This document shows positions 1 through 8,480 of a stretch of 40,348 bases of DNA, piece by piece. This stretch comes from a virus. Taxonomy: Duplodnaviria; Caudoviricetes. The DNA lies in the IMG/VR virus record IMGVR_UViG_3300020044_004040, positions 1 through 40,348 of that record; one strand, given 5' to 3'. A program made the position numbers and the translations under genes. Below the pieces are notes generated by a model. The model ran no database searches. It saw only the letters and a program-made list of their open reading frames with translations, and was not told where the DNA came from. How positions within the stretch are numbered: the stretch's first letter is position 1; each line of letters starts with the position of its first letter.

Positions 1-36
1 TTCAACACGGGGGGTTGCGGTTGGGTTGCGGTTTCT

Positions 37-85
37 TGGCCTGTGGATAACCCCCTGTGGACAACTTTGCTGGCCTGTGGATAAC
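37..85 (-). promoter_or_regulatory. Cluster of three co-oriented DnaA boxes
   Basis: TGTGGATAA at 42-50 and 76-84 (= TTATCCACA) and TGTGGACAA at 56-64 (= TTGTCCACA, Streptomyces-type box); 15-bp direct repeat TGGCCTGTGGATAAC at 37-51 and 71-85. Confidence 0.7.
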
Positions 86-221
86 TGTTTGCCGTAGAAA
101 ACGGTGAAGGGCGCACTCACCCCCCGGCATCCCTAACCCTCTCTCGATCCTGGCAGGGCTGAGCCGGAGATCTATACCCGCCGCACTGGTTTACATAATT
201 AAAAAATACGGCGATTGATAA

Positions 222-291
222 TTACCGGTAAGTAAGTTACCCGCTAGTAAGTTACCGGGGCGACCTGGCTAGTAACTTACCGGACAGTAAC
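222..291. repeat. Iterated palindromic TTAC-N6-GTAA sites (iteron/operator array)
   Basis: TTACcggtaaGTAA 222-235, TTACccgctaGTAA 237-250, half site TTAC 252-255, degenerate copy 262-275, TTACcggacaGTAA 277-290; paired copies have a 15-bp period. Confidence 0.75.
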
Positions 292-309
292 CTTGTCGCC
301 CTAAGATAG

Positions 310-321
310 TTGAAAGTTCAA
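310..321. promoter_or_regulatory. Palindromic operator-like site TTGAA-AG-TTCAA
   Basis: Perfect 5-2-5 inverted repeat upstream of the first promoter. Confidence 0.35.
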
Positions 322-392
322 TCACTTTTAATTGTCGACATATCGCTATTTAATTCACAGGAAATCGTTATCTAATCGTTATCAAAATATCC

Positions 393-420
393 TTGATCGC
401 CTGTCGCTTTCGGGTATTCT
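393..420 (+). promoter_or_regulatory. Putative sigma-A-type early promoter
   Basis: TTGATC (393-398), 16-nt spacer, TATTCT (415-420), upstream of the first + strand gene. Confidence 0.45.
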
Positions 421-488
421 CCTCCTCATAAGCAGGACAGTCCGGCTTATACCCCCCGCCAGGCGGGGGCCGACAGGAAGGCGAAAAG

Positions 489-746
489 ATGAATATCAAC
501 CTCTCTTTCGAGGAGATCGAGATCGTGCGACAGGCTCTCGACTCAGCTCGAGCAAGCGCAAGAGTAAAGCGCGACGAGTTACTAGATGCCCCGGAGGTCC
601 GCCAGGGCGTCGAAAGCGACGAGCTGATATTGGCAGGGCAGAAATACCGCGCAATCGGCGCGACACTCGCCAAGGTCGAGGAGGAGGTAGGAAAGCACTA
701 CTCAACTGAAATGCTGATCCACTGGCGACGCGCCTGCATCGCGTAA
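489..746 (+). CDS. Hypothetical early protein
   Basis: 85 aa, ATG with GGAAGG RBS, helical composition, followed by hairpins. Confidence 0.75.
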   Translation: MNINLSFEEIEIVRQALDSARASARVKRDELLDAPEVRQGVESDELILAGQKYRAIGATLAKVEEEVGKHYSTEMLIHWRRACIA

Positions 747-753
747 CCGATCC

Positions 754-824
754 GCCTCGACCCTAGGAGGGCGCCCGGGATCACGACCCGGCGAGGCACA
801 AGGTAGGCCGTAGATCACGGCCAC
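754..824 (+). other. Intergenic RNA structure: tRNA-like minihelix plus hairpin
   Basis: GCCTCG 754-759 pairs with CGAGGC 792-797 followed by ACAA; CCGGG-7nt loop-CCCGG arm 775-791; CCCT/AGGG arm; second hairpin GGCCGT/ACGGCC within 802-824. Confidence 0.5.
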
Positions 825-843
825 CGATCAAGGGAGGCAAGAG

Positions 844-987
844 ATGTGCGGAATATGCGACAAGAGGGTGGCAAGGGCCACCGCGATCACCTATCGGGTG
901 AGAGTCAGCGGATCTAAGGGATATGCACACCCTGAGTGTTGGGAATCGATCTCAACCGATACAAGAGTGATCAGGGAGGGCGAATAA
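844..987 (+). CDS. Small CxxC...HxxC putative zinc-binding protein (47 aa)
   Basis: MCGICDKR...HPECWES; RBS GGGAGG; stop abuts next ATG; below ORF-track cutoff. Confidence 0.7.
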   Translation: MCGICDKRVARATAITYRVRVSGSKGYAHPECWESISTDTRVIREGE

Positions 988-1182
988 ATGGTGGTCGCTG
1001 AGATCAAGATCAAGAGTTGCGCCCCTTATGCTAAGGGCTGGCAGGTAAACGCCTTTATCGATGGCGTGGAAAGCGAGATGACCTTCTACGGATACACCCG
1101 AAAGGATGCTGAGATCGAGGCCCGTCGCCGGATCGCAAGAGATGGTCGCCTGCCTCACGATCCTTACAAGGGGGGCAATTAG
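988..1182 (+). CDS. Hypothetical protein (GYT-x-K-D/E-A family)
   Basis: 64 aa, RBS GGAGGG; shares motif with 2280..2414. Confidence 0.75.
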   Translation: MVVAEIKIKSCAPYAKGWQVNAFIDGVESEMTFYGYTRKDAEIEARRRIARDGRLPHDPYKGGN

Positions 1183-1302
1183 ATGCCAAAGTGTCCGAAA
1201 TGCGAGAGCGAGATGCACATAAATACCGTGATCGTACTAGGTGGCAAGAATAAGCACTATCAAGAGTGTGGATCGTGTAATTACAGATCGGAGGCAAAGT
1301 GA
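1183..1302 (+). CDS. Small zinc-ribbon protein (39 aa)
   Basis: MPKCPKCESEM...ECGSCNYR; coupled start and stop. Confidence 0.75.
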   Translation: MPKCPKCESEMHINTVIVLGGKNKHYQECGSCNYRSEAK

Positions 1303-1439
1303 TGGATCACTGTGGAGGCGTAATGACGCAAGAGAGAGCGACCCAATATCGGGAAACCCGCTATGAGTGCGGGTCGTGTCGGTACTTGATCGCGGTTGAT
1401 GATCACGGCAACATTGAGTTACTGAGAGAGGGCAGGTAG
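1302..1439 (+). CDS. Small zinc-ribbon-like protein (45 aa)
   Basis: MDHCGGVM...YECGSCRY; TGATG coupling, RBS GGAGG. Confidence 0.7.
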   Translation: MDHCGGVMTQERATQYRETRYECGSCRYLIAVDDHGNIELLREGR

Positions 1440-1541
1440 ATGCGAAAGCGAGAGTATTGGCAGATCGAGGCGATCCTTATCGGGATCGTACTGTTAGGCA
1501 TAGTCGGGCTATGGATCACAAGAGGCACACCGGACTATTAA
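1440..1541 (+). CDS. Small single-pass membrane peptide (33 aa)
   Basis: MRKREYWQIEAILIGIVLLGIVGLWITRGTPDY; RBS GAGGG. Confidence 0.65.
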   Translation: MRKREYWQIEAILIGIVLLGIVGLWITRGTPDY

Positions 1542-1549
1542 CAGGCGTG

Positions 1550-1626
1550 GAGATTCCCTATCGGTGAGCGTGAGCCGCATTAAGCGATTTACGCTCACTG
1601 GTAGAGGATAGCTAGGCGGTTATCCT
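1550..1626 (+). repeat. Conserved structured intergenic element, copy 1
   Basis: GAGATTCCCTATC - long hairpin - GGTAGAGGATAGCTA - GGTTATCCT; same flanks as 2419-2481. Confidence 0.8.
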
Positions 1627-1659
1627 TTCAATACCTAGGCAAGAGAAAGAGGGCAAGAG

Positions 1660-2280
1660 ATGCAACACAAGAGAACACAAGAGATCGCGGGCACCTATTT
1701 ACAGGGCTACACCGTACCGATCACCCGCCGACAGATCTCCGCCGTGTTCGGTGATCCAACCGAATACGAGGAAGGCGAGAAAGTATCTATTGAGTGGGGG
1801 ATCCTATTCGATGACGGCACCCTGGCAACTGTTTACGATTGGAAACGATACGAACTAGGCACGCCGGGGCTTGATGAGGAGATGATCTACAATATCGGAG
1901 GCCTCACCCCGGAGGCGGTGGCAAGGGTCGCGGATGCCTTGAAAGGGGCAGACAAGGCACCGATCACCCGCTCTTTATTTATTGAGGGGCGCGAGTGGTT
2001 CGACAAGGTAAACGGAAACTCTTATTTTAGCGCCCGAATATGGGTCGACGGTGGACAGGTGGCGATCCTACCTTTCCAATATGGTTACGGAGATCAATAT
2101 CTGTACGAGGCACAAAATAAGTTGATTGAGTTAGGCTACCTGCCACAAGAGAGCAAGAACCAAAGCCTGTATACAGTGGCGAGAGAAACCGGCATCGATC
2201 TTTATGCCGTCAAGAGCAACACAAAGAAGGCGGATATGTTTAAGATCTATGAGAGCTACAAAGAAAGGGCGGTGGCGTAA
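1660..2280 (+). CDS. Hypothetical protein, apparent two-domain fusion
   Basis: 206 aa, strong RBS; N-half LQGY..FGDP..EW..ATVYDWK, C-half EWFDKVNGNSYFS..FQYGYG. Confidence 0.85.
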   Translation: MQHKRTQEIAGTYLQGYTVPITRRQISAVFGDPTEYEEGEKVSIEWGILFDDGTLATVYDWKRYELGTPGLDEEMIYNIGGLTPEAVARVADALKGADKAPITRSLFIEGREWFDKVNGNSYFSARIWVDGGQVAILPFQYGYGDQYLYEAQNKLIELGYLPQESKNQSLYTVARETGIDLYAVKSNTKKADMFKIYESYKERAVA

Positions 2281-2414
2281 TGACGATCACAAGGCACCCC
2301 GCAGGGGTTGAGATCTCCGACATAATCGGGGGCTATCGAGTGAGTGAGCTATATATTGGATACACGATCAAAGAGGCGAGAGAGAGATTTCGGGATAAAT
2401 ACCTGATTAAATAG
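2280..2414 (+). CDS. Hypothetical protein (44 aa), paralog-like to 988..1182
   Basis: TAATG coupling; YIGYTIKEAR vs FYGYTRKDAE. Confidence 0.7.
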   Translation: MTITRHPAGVEISDIIGGYRVSELYIGYTIKEARERFRDKYLIK

Positions 2415-2418
2415 GCTA

Positions 2419-2481
2419 GAGATTCCCTATCTTGTAGGGTAGAGTACCCCTGCAAGGTAGAGGATAGCTAACCGGCTACCT
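2419..2481 (+). repeat. Conserved structured intergenic element, copy 2
   Basis: GAGATTCCCTATC - TTGTAGGG/CCCTGCAA hairpin - GGTAGAGGATAGCTA - GGCTACCT. Confidence 0.8.
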
Positions 2482-2511
2482 AATAGATGAATAAGAGAGA
2501 GAGGGCGAGTG

Positions 2512-2673
2512 ATGGATTTACGATTAAGTGAGAGGGAGCTATACGATCTCCTAGGTGCTGTCGAATTGGATTCGGTAGGTAAATGGGGCGATGATCGGAG
2601 CTTACGCCTTGATAAATTAGAGTCAAAGTTAAAGAGAGCAATATCAACCGCAAAGAGAGAGGGAAAGTTATGA
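2512..2673 (+). CDS. Hypothetical protein (53 aa)
   Basis: MDLRLSERELYDLL...; RBS GAGAGGG; ATGA coupling downstream. Confidence 0.7.
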   Translation: MDLRLSERELYDLLGAVELDSVGKWGDDRSLRLDKLESKLKRAISTAKREGKL

Positions 2674-2813
2674 GCTACACAATAGAGGCCACCGGCCTCG
2701 ATGGATGGATGGCCTACCGCTACCAATACAAGATCGGGGCGAGTGAGTGCTTTGGATATGCGGAGAGCGAGAGCGAGGCTCTGGCGATCATAGAGAAAGT
2801 GAGCAAGTTATGA
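2670..2813 (+). CDS. Hypothetical protein (47 aa)
   Basis: MSYTIEATGLDGW...; ATGA overlaps at both ends. Confidence 0.65.
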   Translation: MSYTIEATGLDGWMAYRYQYKIGASECFGYAESESEALAIIEKVSKL

Positions 2814-2947
2814 GCGTTAAGGTGGAGAAGGTAGAGTGTTCAAGGTGCGGGGCTAAGGTGAATCCCTTCACCCTAGTTACTGTCAGCTATCACGAAGATA
2901 TATGTAGAGGGTGCGCAAGCGATATAACAGGGAGGAAATGGAGATGA
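2810..2947 (+). CDS. Small zinc-finger protein (45 aa)
   Basis: CSRC...CRGC; start reassigned from 2747 to the coupled ATG at 2810. Confidence 0.7.
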   Translation: MSVKVEKVECSRCGAKVNPFTLVTVSYHEDICRGCASDITGRKWR

Positions 2948-3084
2948 GTGCAATCGTAAACCCGGTGATCGCGGGAGTCTGCAAGAATTGCGGGGAATCT
3001 ACTCGCGGTTACTATGTAGCGTTAAAAAATGGTAAGTACTCACATATATTTAATTGTAAGAAAGAGGGAGAGGGTGAGCGATGA
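2944..3084 (+). CDS. Small CxxC...H/C protein (46 aa)
   Basis: CKNC...HIFNC; RBS GGGAGG; ATGA coupling. Confidence 0.65.
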   Translation: MSAIVNPVIAGVCKNCGESTRGYYVALKNGKYSHIFNCKKEGEGER

Positions 3085-3137
3085 CTATATGCGGAGATCA
3101 CCTAGTACCGATCAGAGAGTGCGGGTGCAAGATATGA
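3081..3137 (+). CDS. 18-aa Cys/His micropeptide
   Basis: MTICGDHLVPIRECGCKI; strong RBS; ATGA overlap at both ends. Confidence 0.5.
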   Translation: MTICGDHLVPIRECGCKI

Positions 3138-3268
3138 ACGATTGCTTACAATTAGAAGAGGGAGTCATCCCTTGCCTACGTCATCACGGCGGAGCTTGGG
3201 CAGGGTGCAAACTGATTTATTGCCTAGATTGCGGTAAAGATATTAAGAGAGATTGTGAGGATAAGTAG
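3134..3268 (+). CDS. Small Cys-rich protein (44 aa)
   Basis: CLRH...CKLIYCLDC; start reassigned from 3029 to the coupled ATG at 3134. Confidence 0.6.
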   Translation: MNDCLQLEEGVIPCLRHHGGAWAGCKLIYCLDCGKDIKRDCEDK

Positions 3269-3445
3269 ATGAGTATGAGGGAAACTATGGATCAAGAGCT
3301 GGCGGAAGCGCTGGCTATGCTAGAGAAGGCGAACGGTGCGCTTGCGCGTATCTTTGGGATAGAGGAAGAGGGAGATGACGGATCAGGCGTGTGTGATATG
3401 TGCGCTGGTTGCCCTAATTGTGTGGAAGAGGGAGAGAGCGAGTGA
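3269..3445 (+). CDS. Small acidic protein with C-terminal CxxCxxCxxC (58 aa)
   Basis: ...VCDMCAGCPNCVEE; abuts both neighbours. Confidence 0.65.
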   Translation: MSMRETMDQELAEALAMLEKANGALARIFGIEEEGDDGSGVCDMCAGCPNCVEEGESE

Positions 3446-3558
3446 GCTATAACTGTGCTTGGTGCGGAGATTTAAGTGATGAAGTGTTGGAAATAATTAA
3501 CGGACAAAATACCTGCAAACTATGCAGGGAGTTAGCGATAGAAGGAGAGGGAGAGTAA
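3442..3558 (+). CDS. Small zinc-finger protein (38 aa)
   Basis: CAWC...CKLC; GTGA coupling. Confidence 0.65.
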   Translation: MSYNCAWCGDLSDEVLEIINGQNTCKLCRELAIEGEGE

Positions 3559-3692
3559 TGGAGTACGAATATGCAGGAGTGTATGACTGTGGCAAGTGCA
3601 AGGCGAAAGATGTGCAAGTGATCGAGTATTACGTGGGCGGGTTTGAGTGTTTCTCCTGCGCCGGTATTGGGCAAGAGGGAGAGAGTAAATGA
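3558..3692 (+). CDS. Small zinc-ribbon protein (44 aa)
   Basis: CGKC...CFSC; TAATG coupling, RBS GAGGGAG. Confidence 0.7.
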   Translation: MEYEYAGVYDCGKCKAKDVQVIEYYVGGFECFSCAGIGQEGESK

Positions 3693-3943
3693 GCTTTCAC
3701 CCTACACACGAAGCCCTCTTTATATTCTATGAAGTGATAGATAGCGATGGAGTGACCACCTTTGAGGGGGATAAGGCAGGTGAGGCGGTGCAGGCGTTCA
3801 AGGATGCGCCTGCTGGTGCTCGCTTGCTCGTATCTGGCTGGCAGACTGACGACACAGAGCTTACCATTGACGCTCAGATGATAGGGCAGCCGTTAGATGT
3901 AACCGCCCTAGTCGGTGCGGTGAGAGGGGGCTGGGTATGGTAA
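3689..3943 (+). CDS. Hypothetical protein
   Basis: 84 aa, RBS GAGGGAG, ATGA coupling. Confidence 0.75.
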   Translation: MSFHPTHEALFIFYEVIDSDGVTTFEGDKAGEAVQAFKDAPAGARLLVSGWQTDDTELTIDAQMIGQPLDVTALVGAVRGGWVW

Positions 3944-4083
3944 CAGAAGGCTACGCCTATCTGAACGGTACTGATCCTGAGTTCTGGATAGATGAAGATA
4001 TCATCGAGTGTAACGAGTGCGGGGTGGAGTTCGACTACCTGAAGTGGCGATCCTACACCTGCCCTGAATGTGAGTGGAAATAA
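3937..4083 (+). CDS. Small zinc-ribbon protein (48 aa)
   Basis: CNEC...CPEC; RBS GAGGGGG. Confidence 0.7.
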   Translation: MVTEGYAYLNGTDPEFWIDEDIIECNECGVEFDYLKWRSYTCPECEWK

Positions 4084-4151
4084 TGGAATGGTTATTCTTT
4101 ACACTTATTGCGGTATGCTTTGCCGTCTGGATGGAAAGGAATAAATGGTGA
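4083..4151 (+). CDS. 22-aa membrane micropeptide
   Basis: MEWLFFTLIAVCFAVWMERNKW; TAATG coupling. Confidence 0.5.
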   Translation: MEWLFFTLIAVCFAVWMERNKW

Positions 4152-4447
4152 GCGAAAGTAACGAGGCTGGACTTAGCCAAGCGATTCACTACCGTAACTA
4201 TAGAAGGGCCAGAGATAGGGCGAGGACTCGTATAGCTCAACAGTACCCTGAGCTTTACCTAGAATATCTACAAGAGGAGAGAGCAAACGATGAAACTACC
4301 GGTAAAACTTGGGTTGATATTGATCGTAACAGTGGTAGTGCTATCACTATTGAATCATACAAAGACGCTATCGAAGGTAGTACCTATACCGATCCCGATA
4401 ATGACGGAGCGGACGAAGGCAACAATGGAGGAGAAGAGAGAAAATGA
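4145..4447 (+). CDS. Hypothetical protein with Arg-rich helix
   Basis: YRNYRRARDRARTRIAQQYP; RBS GAAAGGA; 3' half overlaps the next gene. Confidence 0.6.
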   Translation: MVSESNEAGLSQAIHYRNYRRARDRARTRIAQQYPELYLEYLQEERANDETTGKTWVDIDRNSGSAITIESYKDAIEGSTYTDPDNDGADEGNNGGEERK

Positions 4448-4730
4448 GAGAATCGTTAGAGAATATAGTCGCGCTCTCGGATATTCGAGAAAGGAAGTTG
4501 CGTGCCTTGTCACCCTATGGACCCGTGAGAGCAGGCTTGACCACTTGGCCCGACCACGCGACTCCAAAGGACGACCCATTAGTTCAGCTTTTGGAATTGC
4601 TCAACTCCTTAGAGAGAGCAGTGGAGAACCTGAACTACAAGTCCTTCACGGCCTACGATACATTGGCCACCGCTACGGAGAATCTGCGTGCCGTGCTCTA
4701 CGACACAGTGATAGGAGAGGGTGGTACTAA
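4290..4730 (+). CDS. Secreted or membrane-anchored lytic transglycosylase-like (SLT/lysozyme-fold) protein
   Basis: N-terminal hydrophobic helix; CLxxLWxRES (catalytic Glu), SSAFGIAQ, GLRYIxxRYG, C-terminal GWY. Confidence 0.8.
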   Translation: MKLPVKLGLILIVTVVVLSLLNHTKTLSKVVPIPIPIMTERTKATMEEKRENERIVREYSRALGYSRKEVACLVTLWTRESRLDHLARPRDSKGRPISSAFGIAQLLRESSGEPELQVLHGLRYIGHRYGESACRALRHSDRRGWY

Positions 4731-5191
4731 TGACTGAGGGATTCTATAAGACAGATACTTTCAAGACATCTAATGATGACACTTGGACAACCCCGCTTGA
4801 CTTCTTTAAGAAGCTAGACAGGGAGTTTAACTTCACCCTGGATGCAGCTGCATTAGCAAGCTCAACCCTGGTGCCTGATAACTGGTTTGGTCCTGATCAC
4901 CCTGAAGAATCAAGGCGTGATGCACTGGTCAATAGGTGGACTACTGACGGCGCAGTCTGGCTCAACCCGCCTTATGGTAGAACCATTAAGGATTGGGTAG
5001 CTAAGGCCGACAGTGAGGCAAAGGCTGGAGCAACAGTGGTATGCCTAGTACCGTCACGCACAGATACAAACTGGTGGTGGGATAGTTGTATTCACCACGA
5101 GGTAAGGTTCATTAAAGGTAGGCTGAAGTTTGGTGATCAAAAGAACGCCGCACCATTTCCGTCAGCCGTTATAGTTATGAAGGGAAAGTAA
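4730..5191 (+). CDS. Phage DNA N6-adenine methyltransferase (Dam-phage family)
   Basis: W-x-TP, LDAAA, WLNPPY, PSRTDTxWW, GRLKF, APFPS motifs; TAATG-coupled start at 4730. Confidence 0.9.
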   Translation: MTEGFYKTDTFKTSNDDTWTTPLDFFKKLDREFNFTLDAAALASSTLVPDNWFGPDHPEESRRDALVNRWTTDGAVWLNPPYGRTIKDWVAKADSEAKAGATVVCLVPSRTDTNWWWDSCIHHEVRFIKGRLKFGDQKNAAPFPSAVIVMKGK

Positions 5192-5376
5192 TGCTTAGAA
5201 TATGGTTAAAGATAGGTATATTGGCAGGATGGGTGAGCGAGCCATACTGCGCTACACACGATGGTAATTACGATTATATGACTGAAGAAGAACAGGAAGA
5301 ATGGGATGATGGAAACGACCCCTGCCACGTGGCCGTGTCTATCTTGATTAAAAACCCATATCAAGGTATAGTTTGA
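5191..5376 (+). CDS. Hypothetical protein
   Basis: 61 aa, GWVSxPYCATHDG...DPC; coupled start. Confidence 0.7.
   Translation: MLRIWLKIGILAGWVSEPYCATHDGNYDYMTEEEQEEWDDGNDPCHVAVSILIKNPYQGIV
5344..5372 (+). promoter_or_regulatory. Sigma-A-type promoter with no downstream ORF
   Basis: TTGATT (5344-5349), 17-nt spacer, TATAGT (5367-5372). Confidence 0.55.
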
Positions 5377-5445
5377 CTTGCCCTCCTAAGTAGCAAAGCC
5401 CTCGCAGGCCTTTACCTCTTTCTCCTGCGGGGGCTATTACTTTTT
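5376..5445 (+). ncRNA. Candidate anti-Shine-Dalgarno small RNA
   Basis: Promoter upstream, terminator hairpin downstream; ACTTGCCCTCCT and loop CCTCTTTCTC are complementary to early-gene RBS motifs. Confidence 0.45.
5397..5445 (+). terminator. Intrinsic terminator between the convergent modules
   Basis: AGCCCTCGCAGG (5397-5408) pairs with CCTGCGGGGGCT (5424-5435), then ATTACTTTTT. Confidence 0.65.
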
Positions 5446-6012
5446 CTTAATCCAGACCTGAGTATTCTTAGCAAGTAATTCGTACTCTCCTTGATGGCGA
5501 TGGAGGAAGAGGTCAATACCTACCATCGGTGCAAGGCGTGGATCACCAGACTCGTGACCCCACGTGTAATCATCAAATGACATAATGCCACCAGACTTGA
5601 GCAGTGGCCAGCTTAGTTCACCATCAAGCAGCACACCAACAGTTGTGTGGTCTGCATCTACATATATGAAGTCAAAGATTGCATCTTTATTAGGGCGATT
5701 AAGAAAGTCCATAGTAGTTGAGGTGACACGCAATACTTGCGGGTAATGATCTGTCTTGTGTCGGTAAGTATCATAGACGCTAACAAAATCCATATCCTTA
5801 TGAGCTATCTCATCGCTACCTTGCCAGGTATCTACATCAGTAAGATAGCAATACTTACCAGTAAGAACGTTATCGCACATCCATACACTAGCGTCACCAG
5901 TAAATGCACCAAGCTGTAAGAAGCGAAGCTTATCTATACCAGCAAGTGGTGTAAGAAACTCTTCAAAGTTAAATTGAGCAGACTTAGCAAACCAGTTAGG
6001 ATAGTCGGTCAC
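5437..6012 (-). CDS. Class I SAM-dependent methyltransferase (Methyltransf_24-like)
   Basis: LQLGAFTGDAS, DVDTW, FDFIYVDADH, LKSGGIMSFDDY. Confidence 0.85.
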   Translation of the reverse strand: MTDYPNWFAKSAQFNFEEFLTPLAGIDKLRFLQLGAFTGDASVWMCDNVLTGKYCYLTDVDTWQGSDEIAHKDMDFVSVYDTYRHKTDHYPQVLRVTSTTMDFLNRPNKDAIFDFIYVDADHTTVGVLLDGELSWPLLKSGGIMSFDDYTWGHESGDPRLAPMVGIDLFLHRHQGEYELLAKNTQVWIKKK

Positions 6013-6185
6013 TTATTATCCGTACTGTAGAAACCAGGGCCATTGAATACAATACTAGGTGTGGACCAGACACGAGTAAGATTACCGTGACAGGTAGTGC
6101 AGATAGGTATTACTTCAGGGTCAGTCATCTTACGCTCGATAGTTACAACAGTCTTATCTGTTGGACATTCATACTCGTAAATCAA
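6009..6185 (-). CDS. FmdB-like zinc-ribbon protein
   Basis: IYEYEC...CTTC...RVW...FNGPGFYSTD; TTG start after GAGGTG. Confidence 0.8.
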   Translation of the reverse strand: MIYEYECPTDKTVVTIERKMTDPEVIPICTTCHGNLTRVWSTPSIVFNGPGFYSTDNK

Positions 6186-6306
6186 GCAACTCACCTCTTA
6201 ACATAAGAAACGTCATCTTACACATAACGCAAACCTTGGCACCGGATTCATCATAGGTGCCGTACTCTTCTAAGTTATTAGGGCATACCCCAACTGCACA
6301 CTTCAT
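6169..6306 (-). CDS. Small Cys-rich protein (45 aa)
   Basis: MKCAVGVC...CVMC; ATGA coupling with the upstream gene. Confidence 0.55.
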   Translation of the reverse strand: MKCAVGVCPNNLEEYGTYDESGAKVCVMCKMTFLMLRGELLDLRV

Positions 6307-6686
6307 AACTTGACTGCCTCCGATATATCTAAGTAACCTACTAACTTATCTACCTTGTAACGATTAGAGAACTCACTGGTAGCAGGCATACGATGTGTTA
6401 CCCACTCAGGTTCAGGTACATCCATCAGATCAAAGGAGTAGATTCCCTGCGGTGTACTGTTAATATAAAAGGGTAAGAGGTTACGCTCAGCTGATTGCGT
6501 GATGAGCTTCTTGTACTTCATTTCTTCTATAAGTAGCGTATCATAATGGGTATAGCGACATTTCAATTCGATGTAGTGACCAGCCTTCTCGCTGATACAG
6601 TCGAAGGCATCATAGATGCCAGGTGATTTAATCAGGTCAGGGTATAGAGTTTCACGTAGCTTATCGAAGAGGTCCTGTTCTTTCAT
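6303..6686 (-). CDS. PD-(D/E)XK-type nuclease-like protein
   Basis: E...FDC...YIELKCR motif. Confidence 0.65.
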   Translation of the reverse strand: MKEQDLFDKLRETLYPDLIKSPGIYDAFDCISEKAGHYIELKCRYTHYDTLLIEEMKYKKLITQSAERNLLPFYINSTPQGIYSFDLMDVPEPEWVTHRMPATSEFSNRYKVDKLVGYLDISEAVKL

Positions 6687-7315
6687 ACCCAGGGCGACCT
6701 TCCACCTAGTAAATCATTTAACTCACGCAGAGCGTGGTCACATCTACGATCAGCTGTGGTAGCGTGGCAACCCAATACATTACCTATCTGTGCAAGGGTC
6801 ATCTGTTCGTGATAGCGCAAGGTAAGTACCTGCCTATCTTCAGCGTCAAGCTCAGTAAACTGTTTCTTAATATCCATCAAGGTAGCAAGTAAGTTGCCAC
6901 CCTCAGCAGGTGAAGAGGAACCTTTAGGTTGTCCATCTAGGATCATCTCTTGTGCTGGTTCAAGGACTGTGCCATCTATGACTGATGCAATAACAAAGGG
7001 TAATAACTTAGCAAGCGTTGCACCTTGGTAGAAAGCTTCATCACCTGGCTGATAGCCAGAGCGTATAGCCTTCTCTCTGCGACAGTAACGCTCAGCTGCA
7101 CGTGTCATCTGCCACGCTAACTTCTGTTCGTTATGCTTACGCTGTTCAAGGTCAGGTTCATCAAGCTGTTCTTTAACCCAGCCTGCTCTGTTCATAGCCC
7201 AGAGTATGCACTCCTGTTTAATATCATCACGATCTACCCACTTATTGTACTTACTATGCACAGCCCGAGATACACTAGGCAGTAACTCAAGTACAAAGGG
7301 ATGGACTTTACTCAT
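6683..7315 (-). CDS. RNA polymerase sigma-70-family (ECF-like) factor
   Basis: Region-2-like DDIKQE..LW; C-terminal region-4 HTH LDAEDRQVLTLRYHEQMTLAQIGNVLG. Confidence 0.8.
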   Translation of the reverse strand: MSKVHPFVLELLPSVSRAVHSKYNKWVDRDDIKQECILWAMNRAGWVKEQLDEPDLEQRKHNEQKLAWQMTRAAERYCRREKAIRSGYQPGDEAFYQGATLAKLLPFVIASVIDGTVLEPAQEMILDGQPKGSSSPAEGGNLLATLMDIKKQFTELDAEDRQVLTLRYHEQMTLAQIGNVLGCHATTADRRCDHALRELNDLLGGRSPWV

Positions 7316-7449
7316 CTATGCTCCTGCCATTCATCGTTGATTTGTACTGCGCCACAGTCGTTGCACCAGATGTGCATTACTCCGTGAGGTTCGCAGTAAC
7401 AGGGAGCTGTGTCTAATACCCAAGGACCGTGAGGACAGTCATCATTCAC
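7312..7449 (-). CDS. Small Cys/His protein (45 aa)
   Basis: MNDDCPHGPW...CYC..H...CNDCG; fills the gap, coupled to the sigma gene. Confidence 0.6.
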   Translation of the reverse strand: MNDDCPHGPWVLDTAPCYCEPHGVMHIWCNDCGAVQINDEWQEHR

Positions 7450-7723
7450 GAGGCCAGTTCCCATCGAGTACCATCAGTGCAATAGCTGAGTAGTTCAGTA
7501 AGTCTATGAAGGAGTCGCGTAAGCTTTCGTTCTCAGGTGTTGCACCCGAGTCAATGAGGTGGTTGATACGCGCTGTCTTGTCGTGCATACGCACACGCAA
7601 TCCGTTGAGTGGACCACCTGGTGATAGGCTGATGTTTGTCGGACCGTAATCTCTGTGCTTACTGAGGAGTAAGTTACCTGCTGAGTCGAGGACTTCCCAC
7701 ATATCTGCGGCAAACTGATTCAC
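7442..7723 (-). CDS. DUF1599 / nucleotide-modification-associated domain protein
   Basis: KHRDYG..N, RMHDKxxR, ESLRDSFIDLLNY; start either GTG 7723 (coupled) or TTG 7822. Confidence 0.75.
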   Translation of the reverse strand: MNQFAADMWEVLDSAGNLLLSKHRDYGPTNISLSPGGPLNGLRVRMHDKTARINHLIDSGATPENESLRDSFIDLLNYSAIALMVLDGNWPRE

Positions 7724-7836
7724 CGTACCGGTATCGGCTGGACTGTGAGAACTAGGTTCGTACGGTCTATTGAGATGATCAAAAAGCCCATTTGTGTCAG
7801 TTTGTTTACCATATTTAGACAATCTTCTTCACTCAC
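7720..7836 (-). CDS. Hypothetical protein (38 aa)
   Basis: MSEEDCLNMVNKLTQMGFLIISIDRTNLVLTVQPIPVR; GTGA coupling at both ends. Confidence 0.5.
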   Translation of the reverse strand: MSEEDCLNMVNKLTQMGFLIISIDRTNLVLTVQPIPVR

Positions 7837-8480
7837 TCTCTCTCACCTATTAGTAATGCCTTCGTTGCCTCAGCACCGTGTGCCAAGTAGTAATCATTTA
7901 TATCCATACCAGGTGGTAGTGTAACAATAGTTGAGTTCAATATCTCGTTAGCCACACGCTTGGCAAAGTCCATTCCTGGATTCGATCCATCTTCTTTAAT
8001 ATCGTTATCACCTACCACATATACCGTGTCGTAGCCATTGAATAGCTTGGCAAAGTGTGGCTTCCAAGCCTGCACTCCAGGTACACCAACAGCTGGTATA
8101 CCTACCATACCGCTGGTGATAACAGTATCTAGCTCACCCTCACAGACCACAATATATGGAGATAGGGTCAACACATCTGTCACGTTATACAGGTGTGCCT
8201 TCTGTCCTGTAGGGCTACCATACTTAGGCTTACCGTCATCTATCCTGCGGAACTTAAAGCCTACGCAATGGTTCATAGCTGTTATGTATGGAATAGAAAT
8301 CCATCCTTCGTACATCTCGTGACCATTGATAGGTTCAACGATAGTACCCAGCTGAAACCTCGCTGCTACCTGTTCAGAGATCCCACGTTCTGCTAGGGCG
8401 ACGATTGCCTCGGGAGTTATTTCCTGAGCGTAGCGTTGCGCCGCTTCCAGTTGCAATTTCGATTGCGCGTTTGAGGCCAT
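7833..8480 (-). CDS. DNA primase, Toprim/catalytic part
   Basis: ISIPY, KFRR, KY, CEGELD, GDND, DIND motifs. Confidence 0.9.
   Translation of the reverse strand: MASNAQSKLQLEAAQRYAQEITPEAIVALAERGISEQVAARFQLGTIVEPINGHEMYEGWISIPYITAMNHCVGFKFRRIDDGKPKYGSPTGQKAHLYNVTDVLTLSPYIVVCEGELDTVITSGMVGIPAVGVPGVQAWKPHFAKLFNGYDTVYVVGDNDIKEDGSNPGMDFAKRVANEILNSTIVTLPPGMDINDYYLAHGAEATKALLIGERE

What the first reader, a model, noticed from the sequence alone, without database searches (positions are those of the whole stretch)
1550..2481. Twice-repeated structured RNA element with invariant flanks and a swapped internal hairpin
Seen: both copies (1550-1626, 2419-2481) sit just after a stop codon and about 30 nt before a start codon, and share GAGATTCCCTATC and GGTAGAGGATAGCTA exactly, while the enclosed hairpins differ entirely in sequence and length yet both pair. 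ATTC-C-CTATC can pair with GGTAG-A-GGAT (conserved C.A mismatch); alternatively AGGATAGC pairs with downstream GTTATCCT or GCTACCT, so two folds compete. Inference: a conserved processing site (RNase III-like, as in T7 early RNA), an antitermination element, a switch or an unclassified ribozyme.
Basis: partly seen in the sequence, partly recalled or inferred. Interest (0 to 1): 0.7.

Follow-up and report, generated by a model that had tools for sequence, protein, structure and literature searches.

The report
RNase III-like stems swapping with hammerheads
Two copies of a conserved two-way RNA fold sit between the early genes of an uncultured phage that likely infects actinobacteria; close relatives carry hammerhead (self-cutting RNA) motifs in front of the same gene, so the fold is likely a site where the host enzyme RNase III cuts the long message and leaves each piece with a predicted protective hairpin.

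Summary
Related phage loci hold 47 distinct elements (23 core clusters), almost all just after a stop codon. Each forms a helix of about 24 bp with strong covariation (95% of cells paired, 18 of 19 pairs compensatory). Its lower 3' strand refolds into a second hairpin starting at one fixed base (44 of 47; background 6%). An RNase III cut at that base fits the helix length and proximal-box rules. It also fits the G·G mismatch shared with actinobacterial pre-16S stems and the mapped B. subtilis cut. In relatives, type II hammerheads occupy the junction before the same gene (17 of 35 junctions), and cutting there would leave the same pair of hairpin ends. No Rfam match, no catalytic core, no U-tract. 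Against: the E. coli matrix test was not significant (377/2000), the window's copies lack G·G, and no RNA run was listed. Verdict: a new variant of T7/SP82-type processing signals, untested. Streptomyces cluster BF phages carry similar folds and offer a lab test. This scan noted the same class and the hammerhead swap before on other DNA.

The parts
1440..1541 (+). 33-aa ORF upstream of copy 1; stop TAA 1539-1541
   Evidence: sequence; stop 16 nt before +1
1548..1557 (+). copy 1, 5' strand of the lower stem (register -10..-1; C·A at -1, tandem A·G/G·A at -7/-6)
   Evidence: pair table; covariation
1558..1604 (+). copy 1, upper hairpin (about 20 bp); predicted RNase III cut on the 3' strand between 1604 and 1605
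   Evidence: fold; cut position inferred
1605..1626 (+). copy 1, hairpin 2; its 5' strand is also the 3' strand of the lower stem; predicted 5' end of the downstream mRNA
1641..1653 (+). purine-rich ribosome-binding tract, outside both folds
   Evidence: sequence; repeat families D1-D4
1660..2280 (+). 206-aa two-domain protein, no Pfam family; homologues are often preceded by a type II hammerhead
2280..2414 (+). 44-aa ORF upstream of copy 2; stop TAG 2412-2414
2417..2426 (+). copy 2, 5' strand of the lower stem
2427..2460 (+). copy 2, upper hairpin (13 bp); predicted cut between 2460 and 2461
   Evidence: cut inferred
2461..2481 (+). copy 2, hairpin 2
2493..2505 (+). purine-rich ribosome-binding tract before the 54-aa ORF at 2509

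Best explanation
The two elements are conserved two-way RNA folds at gene junctions of a likely early phage operon, and they likely serve as cutting sites for the host's RNase III that split the long message into pieces with predicted protected ends. Shown: a helix of about 24 bp (register -11 to +13) whose lower 3' strand alternatively forms a hairpin starting at one fixed base. Inferred: RNase III binds the extended helix and cuts the 3' strand between the partners of +1 and -1 (1604/1605 and 2460/2461; uncertain by about 1 nt). Inferred: the released strand folds into hairpin 2 flush with the new 5' end, which shields it from RNase J. Inferred: the upstream piece keeps the upper hairpin at its 3' end. 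A single cut is suggested by a C-G pair at upper proximal-box position 2, a known inhibitory pair, with none at the matching lower position.
For: (1) Covariation on 34 aligned elements: 95.2% of 646 cells paired, 18 of 19 pairs with compensatory change, 0 of 500 shuffles; slid partners 42-54%. Non-circular test with seeds chosen on the upper stem only: 56 on the coding strand vs 3 on the other; lower cells 330 of 392 paired vs 150-197 when slid. (2) Hairpin 2 starts at the first base after the partner of +1 in 44 of 47 elements (background 184 of 3000; 0 of 7 in-gene look-alikes); among 23 cluster representatives 21 at offset 0 vs 2 at offset -1. (3) With the cut there, the helix spans the 24 positions L'..L of the E. 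coli alignment (PMC6212723 Table S4). Pairing drops below -11 (26 of 47 at -12, 13 of 47 at -14), and upper stems have at least 12 pairs. (4) G-C/C-G pairs: 0 of 47 at lower D', 44 of 47 at upper D, 0 of 47 at B. Such pairs at pb2 or pb4 inhibit RNase III (passages of PMC1540722, PMC3074117; mapping pb2 to D is my inference). (5) The commonest Nanopelagicaceae pre-16S stems carry C-G, U·G, U-A, G·G, as the G·G subtype does (G·G at -2 in 18 of 47). The B. subtilis cut (PMC4838370 section 20: a 65-nt fragment starting 2 nt past 16S), counted on a B. subtilis trailer, falls one pair above that species' G·G, where hairpin 2 starts in the phage. (6) 39 distinct type II hammerheads in relatives, all on the coding strand. 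Before N-half homologues of the 1660 gene: hammerhead 17, element 1 (the window), neither 16, truncated 1, of 35. Before stand-alone C-half homologues: element 13, hammerhead 6, neither 34, truncated 4, of 57. (7) Candidate hosts encode RNase III (2 of 2) and RNase J (5 of 5).
Against: No cut has been observed. The E. coli matrix ranks the predicted register first of 14 (-2.54) but negative in absolute terms; it is best in only 10 of 23 representatives, and a column permutation reached it in 377 of 2000. A register higher in the stem (+8) scored better. B' is C-G in 19 of 47, a catalytic antideterminant in E. coli. D' is G·U or U·G in 26 of 47, rare in E. coli sites. The window's own copies lack G·G. 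The subtype with A·C at -2 resembles the host stems in a register shifted by 3 pairs, which I cannot explain. The B. subtilis count assumes where mature 16S ends and uses another strain's trailer (1-2 nt uncertainty). Covariation counts include related phages. Many homologous junctions carry neither device. The host is inferred from WhiB and capsid similarity, not shown.
Confidence: 0.7

Rival explanations
1. Translation-gated version of the same site: a ribosome stopping at the stop codon built into the lower stem melts it and flips the RNA to the two-hairpin fold, so cutting depends on whether the upstream gene is being translated.
For: The -10..-8 triplet is the in-frame stop of the upstream ORF in 32 of 47 elements, 7 nt before the upper stem. 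The folds are close in energy (median -1.6 kcal/mol, extended fold favoured in 35 of 47).
Against: Where the triplet is not the gene's stop it stays U-purine-purine (UGG in 7) and still pairs, so structure alone explains it. In the window's copies the stop is 12 and 16 nt away. Hammerheads at the same junctions need no ribosome.
Confidence: 0.12
2. No cutting: the hairpins act as stabilisers, translation insulators or weak terminators after stop codons.
For: A strong hairpin right after a stop codon, and two adjacent hairpins in one fold.
Against: This does not explain the conserved lower stem with mismatches or the fixed start of hairpin 2. There is no U-tract (at most 3 T in the 8 nt after hairpin 2, 47 of 47), and the SD lies outside hairpin 2 in 37 of 45. 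The same junctions carry hammerheads in relatives.
Confidence: 0.1
3. A new self-cleaving ribozyme class.
For: It occupies the same junctions as type II hammerheads, and has no Rfam match.
Against: Only one column is invariant in 34 sequences, and it is paired. The unpaired positions -7, -6 and -2 vary. There is no junction or pseudoknot; the conserved features are base pairs in a long helix.
Confidence: 0.04
4. Antiterminator of the HK022 put type (two adjacent stems acting on RNA polymerase; recalled, no paper read).
For: One fold is two stems with no spacer.
Against: The elements sit at gene junctions about 1.1 and 2.0 kb from the likely promoter, in several copies. Their sequence is conserved in the other (extended) fold, and hammerheads replace them.
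Confidence: 0.03

Closest known systems
RNase III processing signals of the phage T7 early mRNA (R0.3, R0.5, R1, R1.1, R1.3)
   Same: Imperfect stems between small early genes. A single cut that leaves a 3' stabilising hairpin is described for them (passages of PMC8708148, PMC3867540).
   Different: No sequence relation (model R1 gave no hit in T7 1-8000). The elements have mismatches instead of an asymmetric internal loop and a fixed alternative hairpin at the predicted new 5' end. For T7, 0 of 5 downstream fragments meet that criterion and 2 of 5 have a weak hairpin at offset 1 (R1.1 position from PMC8708148, the other four placed by motif likeness).
B. subtilis phage SP82 early-mRNA RNase III sites
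   Same: Host RNase III processing of an early phage transcript in a host with RNase J (seen only as a passage and reference in PMC4838370).
   Different: Not compared at sequence level; different host phylum.
Pre-16S leader-trailer stems of Nanopelagicaceae and Bacillus
   Same: C-G, U·G, U-A, G·G run in Nanopelagicaceae, shared with the G·G subtype; G·G also in Bacillus, one pair below its mapped cut.
   Different: Long-range stems cut on both strands with no refolding hairpin; the window's subtype has C·A instead of G·G.
Clustered type II hammerheads between phage and prophage genes (Rfam RF02276; Perreault et al. 2011, PMC3088659)
   Same: Same slot, between stop codon and ribosome-binding site; type II cleavage leaves hairpins on both new ends. 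That paper proposes processing into gene-length mRNAs.
   Different: The element has no hammerhead core, and none was found in the window.

Membership tests
RNase III substrate (T7-type processing signal) | Double helix of about 22-24 bp around the cut | tested here: met
   helix -11..+13
RNase III substrate (T7-type processing signal) | Intergenic, on the coding strand of an early polycistronic arm | tested here: met
   'early' inferred from gene order as in cluster BF phages
RNase III substrate (T7-type processing signal) | Proximal-box base-pair preferences | tested here: inconclusive
   no G-C at D' or B, but C-G at B' in 19 of 47; matrix null 377 of 2000
RNase III substrate (T7-type processing signal) | RNase III-dependent cleavage at a defined bond | not testable with these tools
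   needs RNA ends or an assay
RNase III substrate (T7-type processing signal) | Host encodes RNase III | tested here: inconclusive
   present in 2 of 2 candidate host genomes; true host unknown
Hammerhead and other known self-cleaving ribozymes | Catalytic core or Rfam match | tested here: not met
Intrinsic terminator | Hairpin followed by a U-tract | tested here: not met
Stop-codon readthrough signal | Open in-frame path from the stop to the next gene | tested here: not met
   6 of 38 in frame and open
put-type antiterminator | Promoter-proximal position and read-through activity | tested here: inconclusive
   position does not fit; activity untestable here; definition recalled

The most novel reading that the evidence does not exclude
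The fold cuts itself: an unrecognised self-cleaving RNA that phages use interchangeably with type II hammerheads at early-gene junctions.
Probability: 0.04. Interest if true: 0.9.

Novelty: new variant of a known kind. Interest (0 to 1): 0.5.

Why it matters
If true, these phages cut their first transcript into protected pieces by either a host-enzyme site or a ribozyme at the same junction. That would give a concrete, testable job to intergenic phage hammerheads, whose role Perreault et al. left open. The family is also a natural substitution series for actinobacterial RNase III specificity. It suggests a compact part that cuts and re-protects mRNA in hosts with a 5' exonuclease. Cultured Streptomyces cluster BF phages show a similar two-fold layout, so it can be tested now.

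Tried and rejected
Rfam: window 1-8000 gave only a chance snoRNA hit, E 3.3. Eight related loci gave a sub-threshold hammerhead (followed up) and a chance serC hit. Exact-flank scans of viral contigs gave 10 and 6 stretches, with only one true homologous contig (L006/L013). No RNA holder was listed, so no reads were laid. Rows dropped from the 64 profile hits: 7 for strand, score or weak stem, 3 not paired in the minimum-energy fold, and 7 inside a long gene, kept as a control. One row (L120) was moved by hand to its true partner block. My first hammerhead pattern was off by one (2 hits) and was corrected. The pair profile and model R1 do not hit the BF phages or T7, so the BF likeness is in architecture only and judged by eye. 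The S. coelicolor +52 site (PMC4681348) could not be placed on the host stem. The S. aureus 93+M site (PMC3937233) could not be used without the sequence. The B. subtilis 5' cut could not be confirmed from a paper. Look-ups of earlier findings by place and by sequence returned nothing. Ten paper searches listed no description of these elements. That library lacks most subscription papers, and bioRxiv supplements were not seen.

Full report
Context. The window is a 40,348-base virus record with WhiB, an L5 gp49-like protein, a sigma-70 region-4 protein and an SU10 adaptor. Its capsid is 43-46% identical to those of Streptomyces cluster BF phages and two unannotated records (35 of 41 matches are Streptomyces phages). 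Positions about 490-5400 form a run of small + strand ORFs with purine-rich ribosome-binding tracts. I read this as the early operon of an actinobacterial podovirus (inference).

Observation. The two exact blocks occur twice each. The inner hairpins are far more stable than shuffles and favour the + strand. The extended fold and the two-hairpin fold are within 2 kcal/mol in both copies. Rfam has no match.

Family. Exact-flank scans found one more contig. Searching with the protein at 1660-2280 gave 79 viral and 80 metagenome loci; 89 of the loci held, the closest ones with the window, were scanned. Strong hairpins numbered 71 on the coding strand and 13 on the other. A pair profile anchored on the CUAUC block gave 64 rows; 17 were dropped as listed under Tried and rejected, leaving 47 distinct elements in 23 core clusters. 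With +1 the C of CUAUC, the consensus is: pairs at -11..-8 (U-A at -10 in 44 of 47), mostly unpaired -7/-6, pairs at -5..-3, a mismatch at -2 or -1 (42 of 47), then C-G, U·G, A-U, U·G, C-G and a free upper stem of at least 12 pairs. On an alignment of 34 of the 47 elements, 95.2% of cells pair and 18 of 19 pairs change on both sides, above all 500 shuffles and all slid registers. Seeds chosen on the upper stem alone give the same lower stem (330 of 392 vs 150-197 slid). Even the window's subtype covaries there: UAG/CUA, UGG/CUA and UGG/CCA. The 3' arm changes letters completely between subtypes while keeping both of its partners. Hairpin 2 begins at the base after the partner of +1 in 44 of 47 (background 184 of 3000). 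Model R1 finds both window copies and further relatives, and no BF or T7 hit.

Where would a cut fall? A cut at the start of hairpin 2 centres the helix on +1/+2 and makes it span the 24 positions of the E. coli alignment (PMC6212723: passages, section 27 and supplement Table S4 read). In that register G-C/C-G pairs are absent at D' (0 of 47) and B (0 of 47) and nearly fixed at D (44 of 47). Such pairs at proximal-box positions 2 and 4 inhibit RNase III (PMC1540722 and PMC3074117, passages). One set of boxes is enough to specify a cut, so I infer a permissive lower set and a blocked upper set, giving one cut on the 3' strand. The matrix itself is weak support: the register is first of 14 but negative, best in 10 of 23, permutation null 377 of 2000, and +8 scores higher. 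B' is C-G in 19 of 47 and D' is a wobble pair in 26 of 47, both unlike E. coli sites. In 54 Nanopelagicaceae pre-16S stems the commonest forms carry C-G, U·G, U-A, G·G, as does the G·G subtype (18 of 47). In B. subtilis the reported 65-nt fragment (PMC4838370, passages and section 20), counted on a B. subtilis trailer, ends one pair above that stem's G·G, the geometry predicted for the phage. The matrix also ranks that register first in that stem, narrowly (2.5 vs 2.2). This count is uncertain by 1-2 nt. The window's copies have C·A next to the predicted cut instead; an A·C pair next to the 3' cut is tolerated in the Aquifex pre-16S substrate.

Hammerheads in the same slot. A sub-threshold Rfam hit in L024 led to a pattern search: 39 distinct type II hammerheads, all on the coding strand, in 48 of 163 loci, none in the window. 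36 of 161 loci hold both devices. In front of N-half homologues of the gene that follows copy 1, 17 of 35 junctions have a hammerhead and only the window has the element. In front of stand-alone C-half homologues, 13 of 57 have the element and 6 a hammerhead; most of the rest have neither. A type II hammerhead leaves stem III on the upstream piece and stem I at the first base of the downstream piece (required by my pattern), the same pair of ends predicted for the element. Clustered phage hammerheads were proposed to make gene-length mRNAs (PMC3088659, passages). This swap is the strongest reason to think the element marks a cut.

Mechanism. RNase III likely cuts at 1604/1605 and 2460/2461, hairpin 2 closes on the new 5' end, and the upper hairpin stays on the upstream piece. 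Candidate hosts have RNase III and RNase J; S. coelicolor has both (PMC4681348, passages). The stop codon doubles as the bottom of the stem in 32 of 47 elements, which allows ribosome gating, but the triplet stays U-purine-purine and paired where it is not a stop. Terminator, readthrough, ribozyme and put-type readings fail or fit poorly.

Known and new. Host RNase III sites between early phage genes are known for T7 (PMC8708148, PMC3867540, passages) and SP82 (reference and passage only). The fixed refolding hairpin and the swap with hammerheads in this phage group were not found in ten paper searches (listed under Tried and rejected). Other papers opened, as passages: bioRxiv 10.1101/2023.03.12.532304, PMC7509114, PMC3937233, PMC8782170; none describes the element. 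Intergenic regions in the right arm of two BF phages show long imperfect stems after stop codons, several with an alternative 3' hairpin (judged by eye, no profile hit). Earlier notes of this scan describe the same class and the hammerhead swap in other genomes; they are unchecked and not counted as evidence. Verdict: new variant of a known kind, interest 0.5, mechanism inferred and untested.

Noticed in passing
window 749-826 (+): A different structured element after the first early ORF: a three-way junction, ACAA, then a bulged hairpin. Conserved with compensatory changes in L013 and L024; z only -1.74; no Rfam match.
   Followed up: partly
L024:3875 and 4100, and 37 more in related loci: 39 distinct type II hammerheads with complete cores between early genes of these phages; the one scored against Rfam fell below the gathering score.
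   Followed up: yes
L179 (Percastrophe) about 39522-44279 and L180 (Kumquat) about 39265-42955, minus strand: Cultured Streptomyces BF phages have long stems after stop codons, some pairing the stop codon itself, with an alternative 3' hairpin before a CAAGGGGAGAG tract.
   Followed up: partly
window 393-420 (+): Likely host-type promoter at the head of the operon (TTGATC, 16 nt, TATTCT; TTGACC/TATAGT in L006), read by eye; the consensus scan did not list it.
   Followed up: no
window 222-291: Repeated GTAAGTTAC/GTAACTTAC motifs near the genome end, expanded in L006; possibly a packaging or replication signal.
   Followed up: no
window 1641-3700 (+): Nearly every small ORF has a long AG-rich ribosome-binding tract (families D1-D4), possibly also a 5' stabiliser.
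   Followed up: no
L018:1318-1370, L023:4901-4964, L021:5893-5943, L045:2810-2863, L115:408-460: Divergent long stems of similar layout, below or near the model threshold; probably further subtypes.
   Followed up: no
L178:5889 and 1470 (T7): T7 R1.1 and R0.5 have a weak hairpin one base after the cut.
   Followed up: partly
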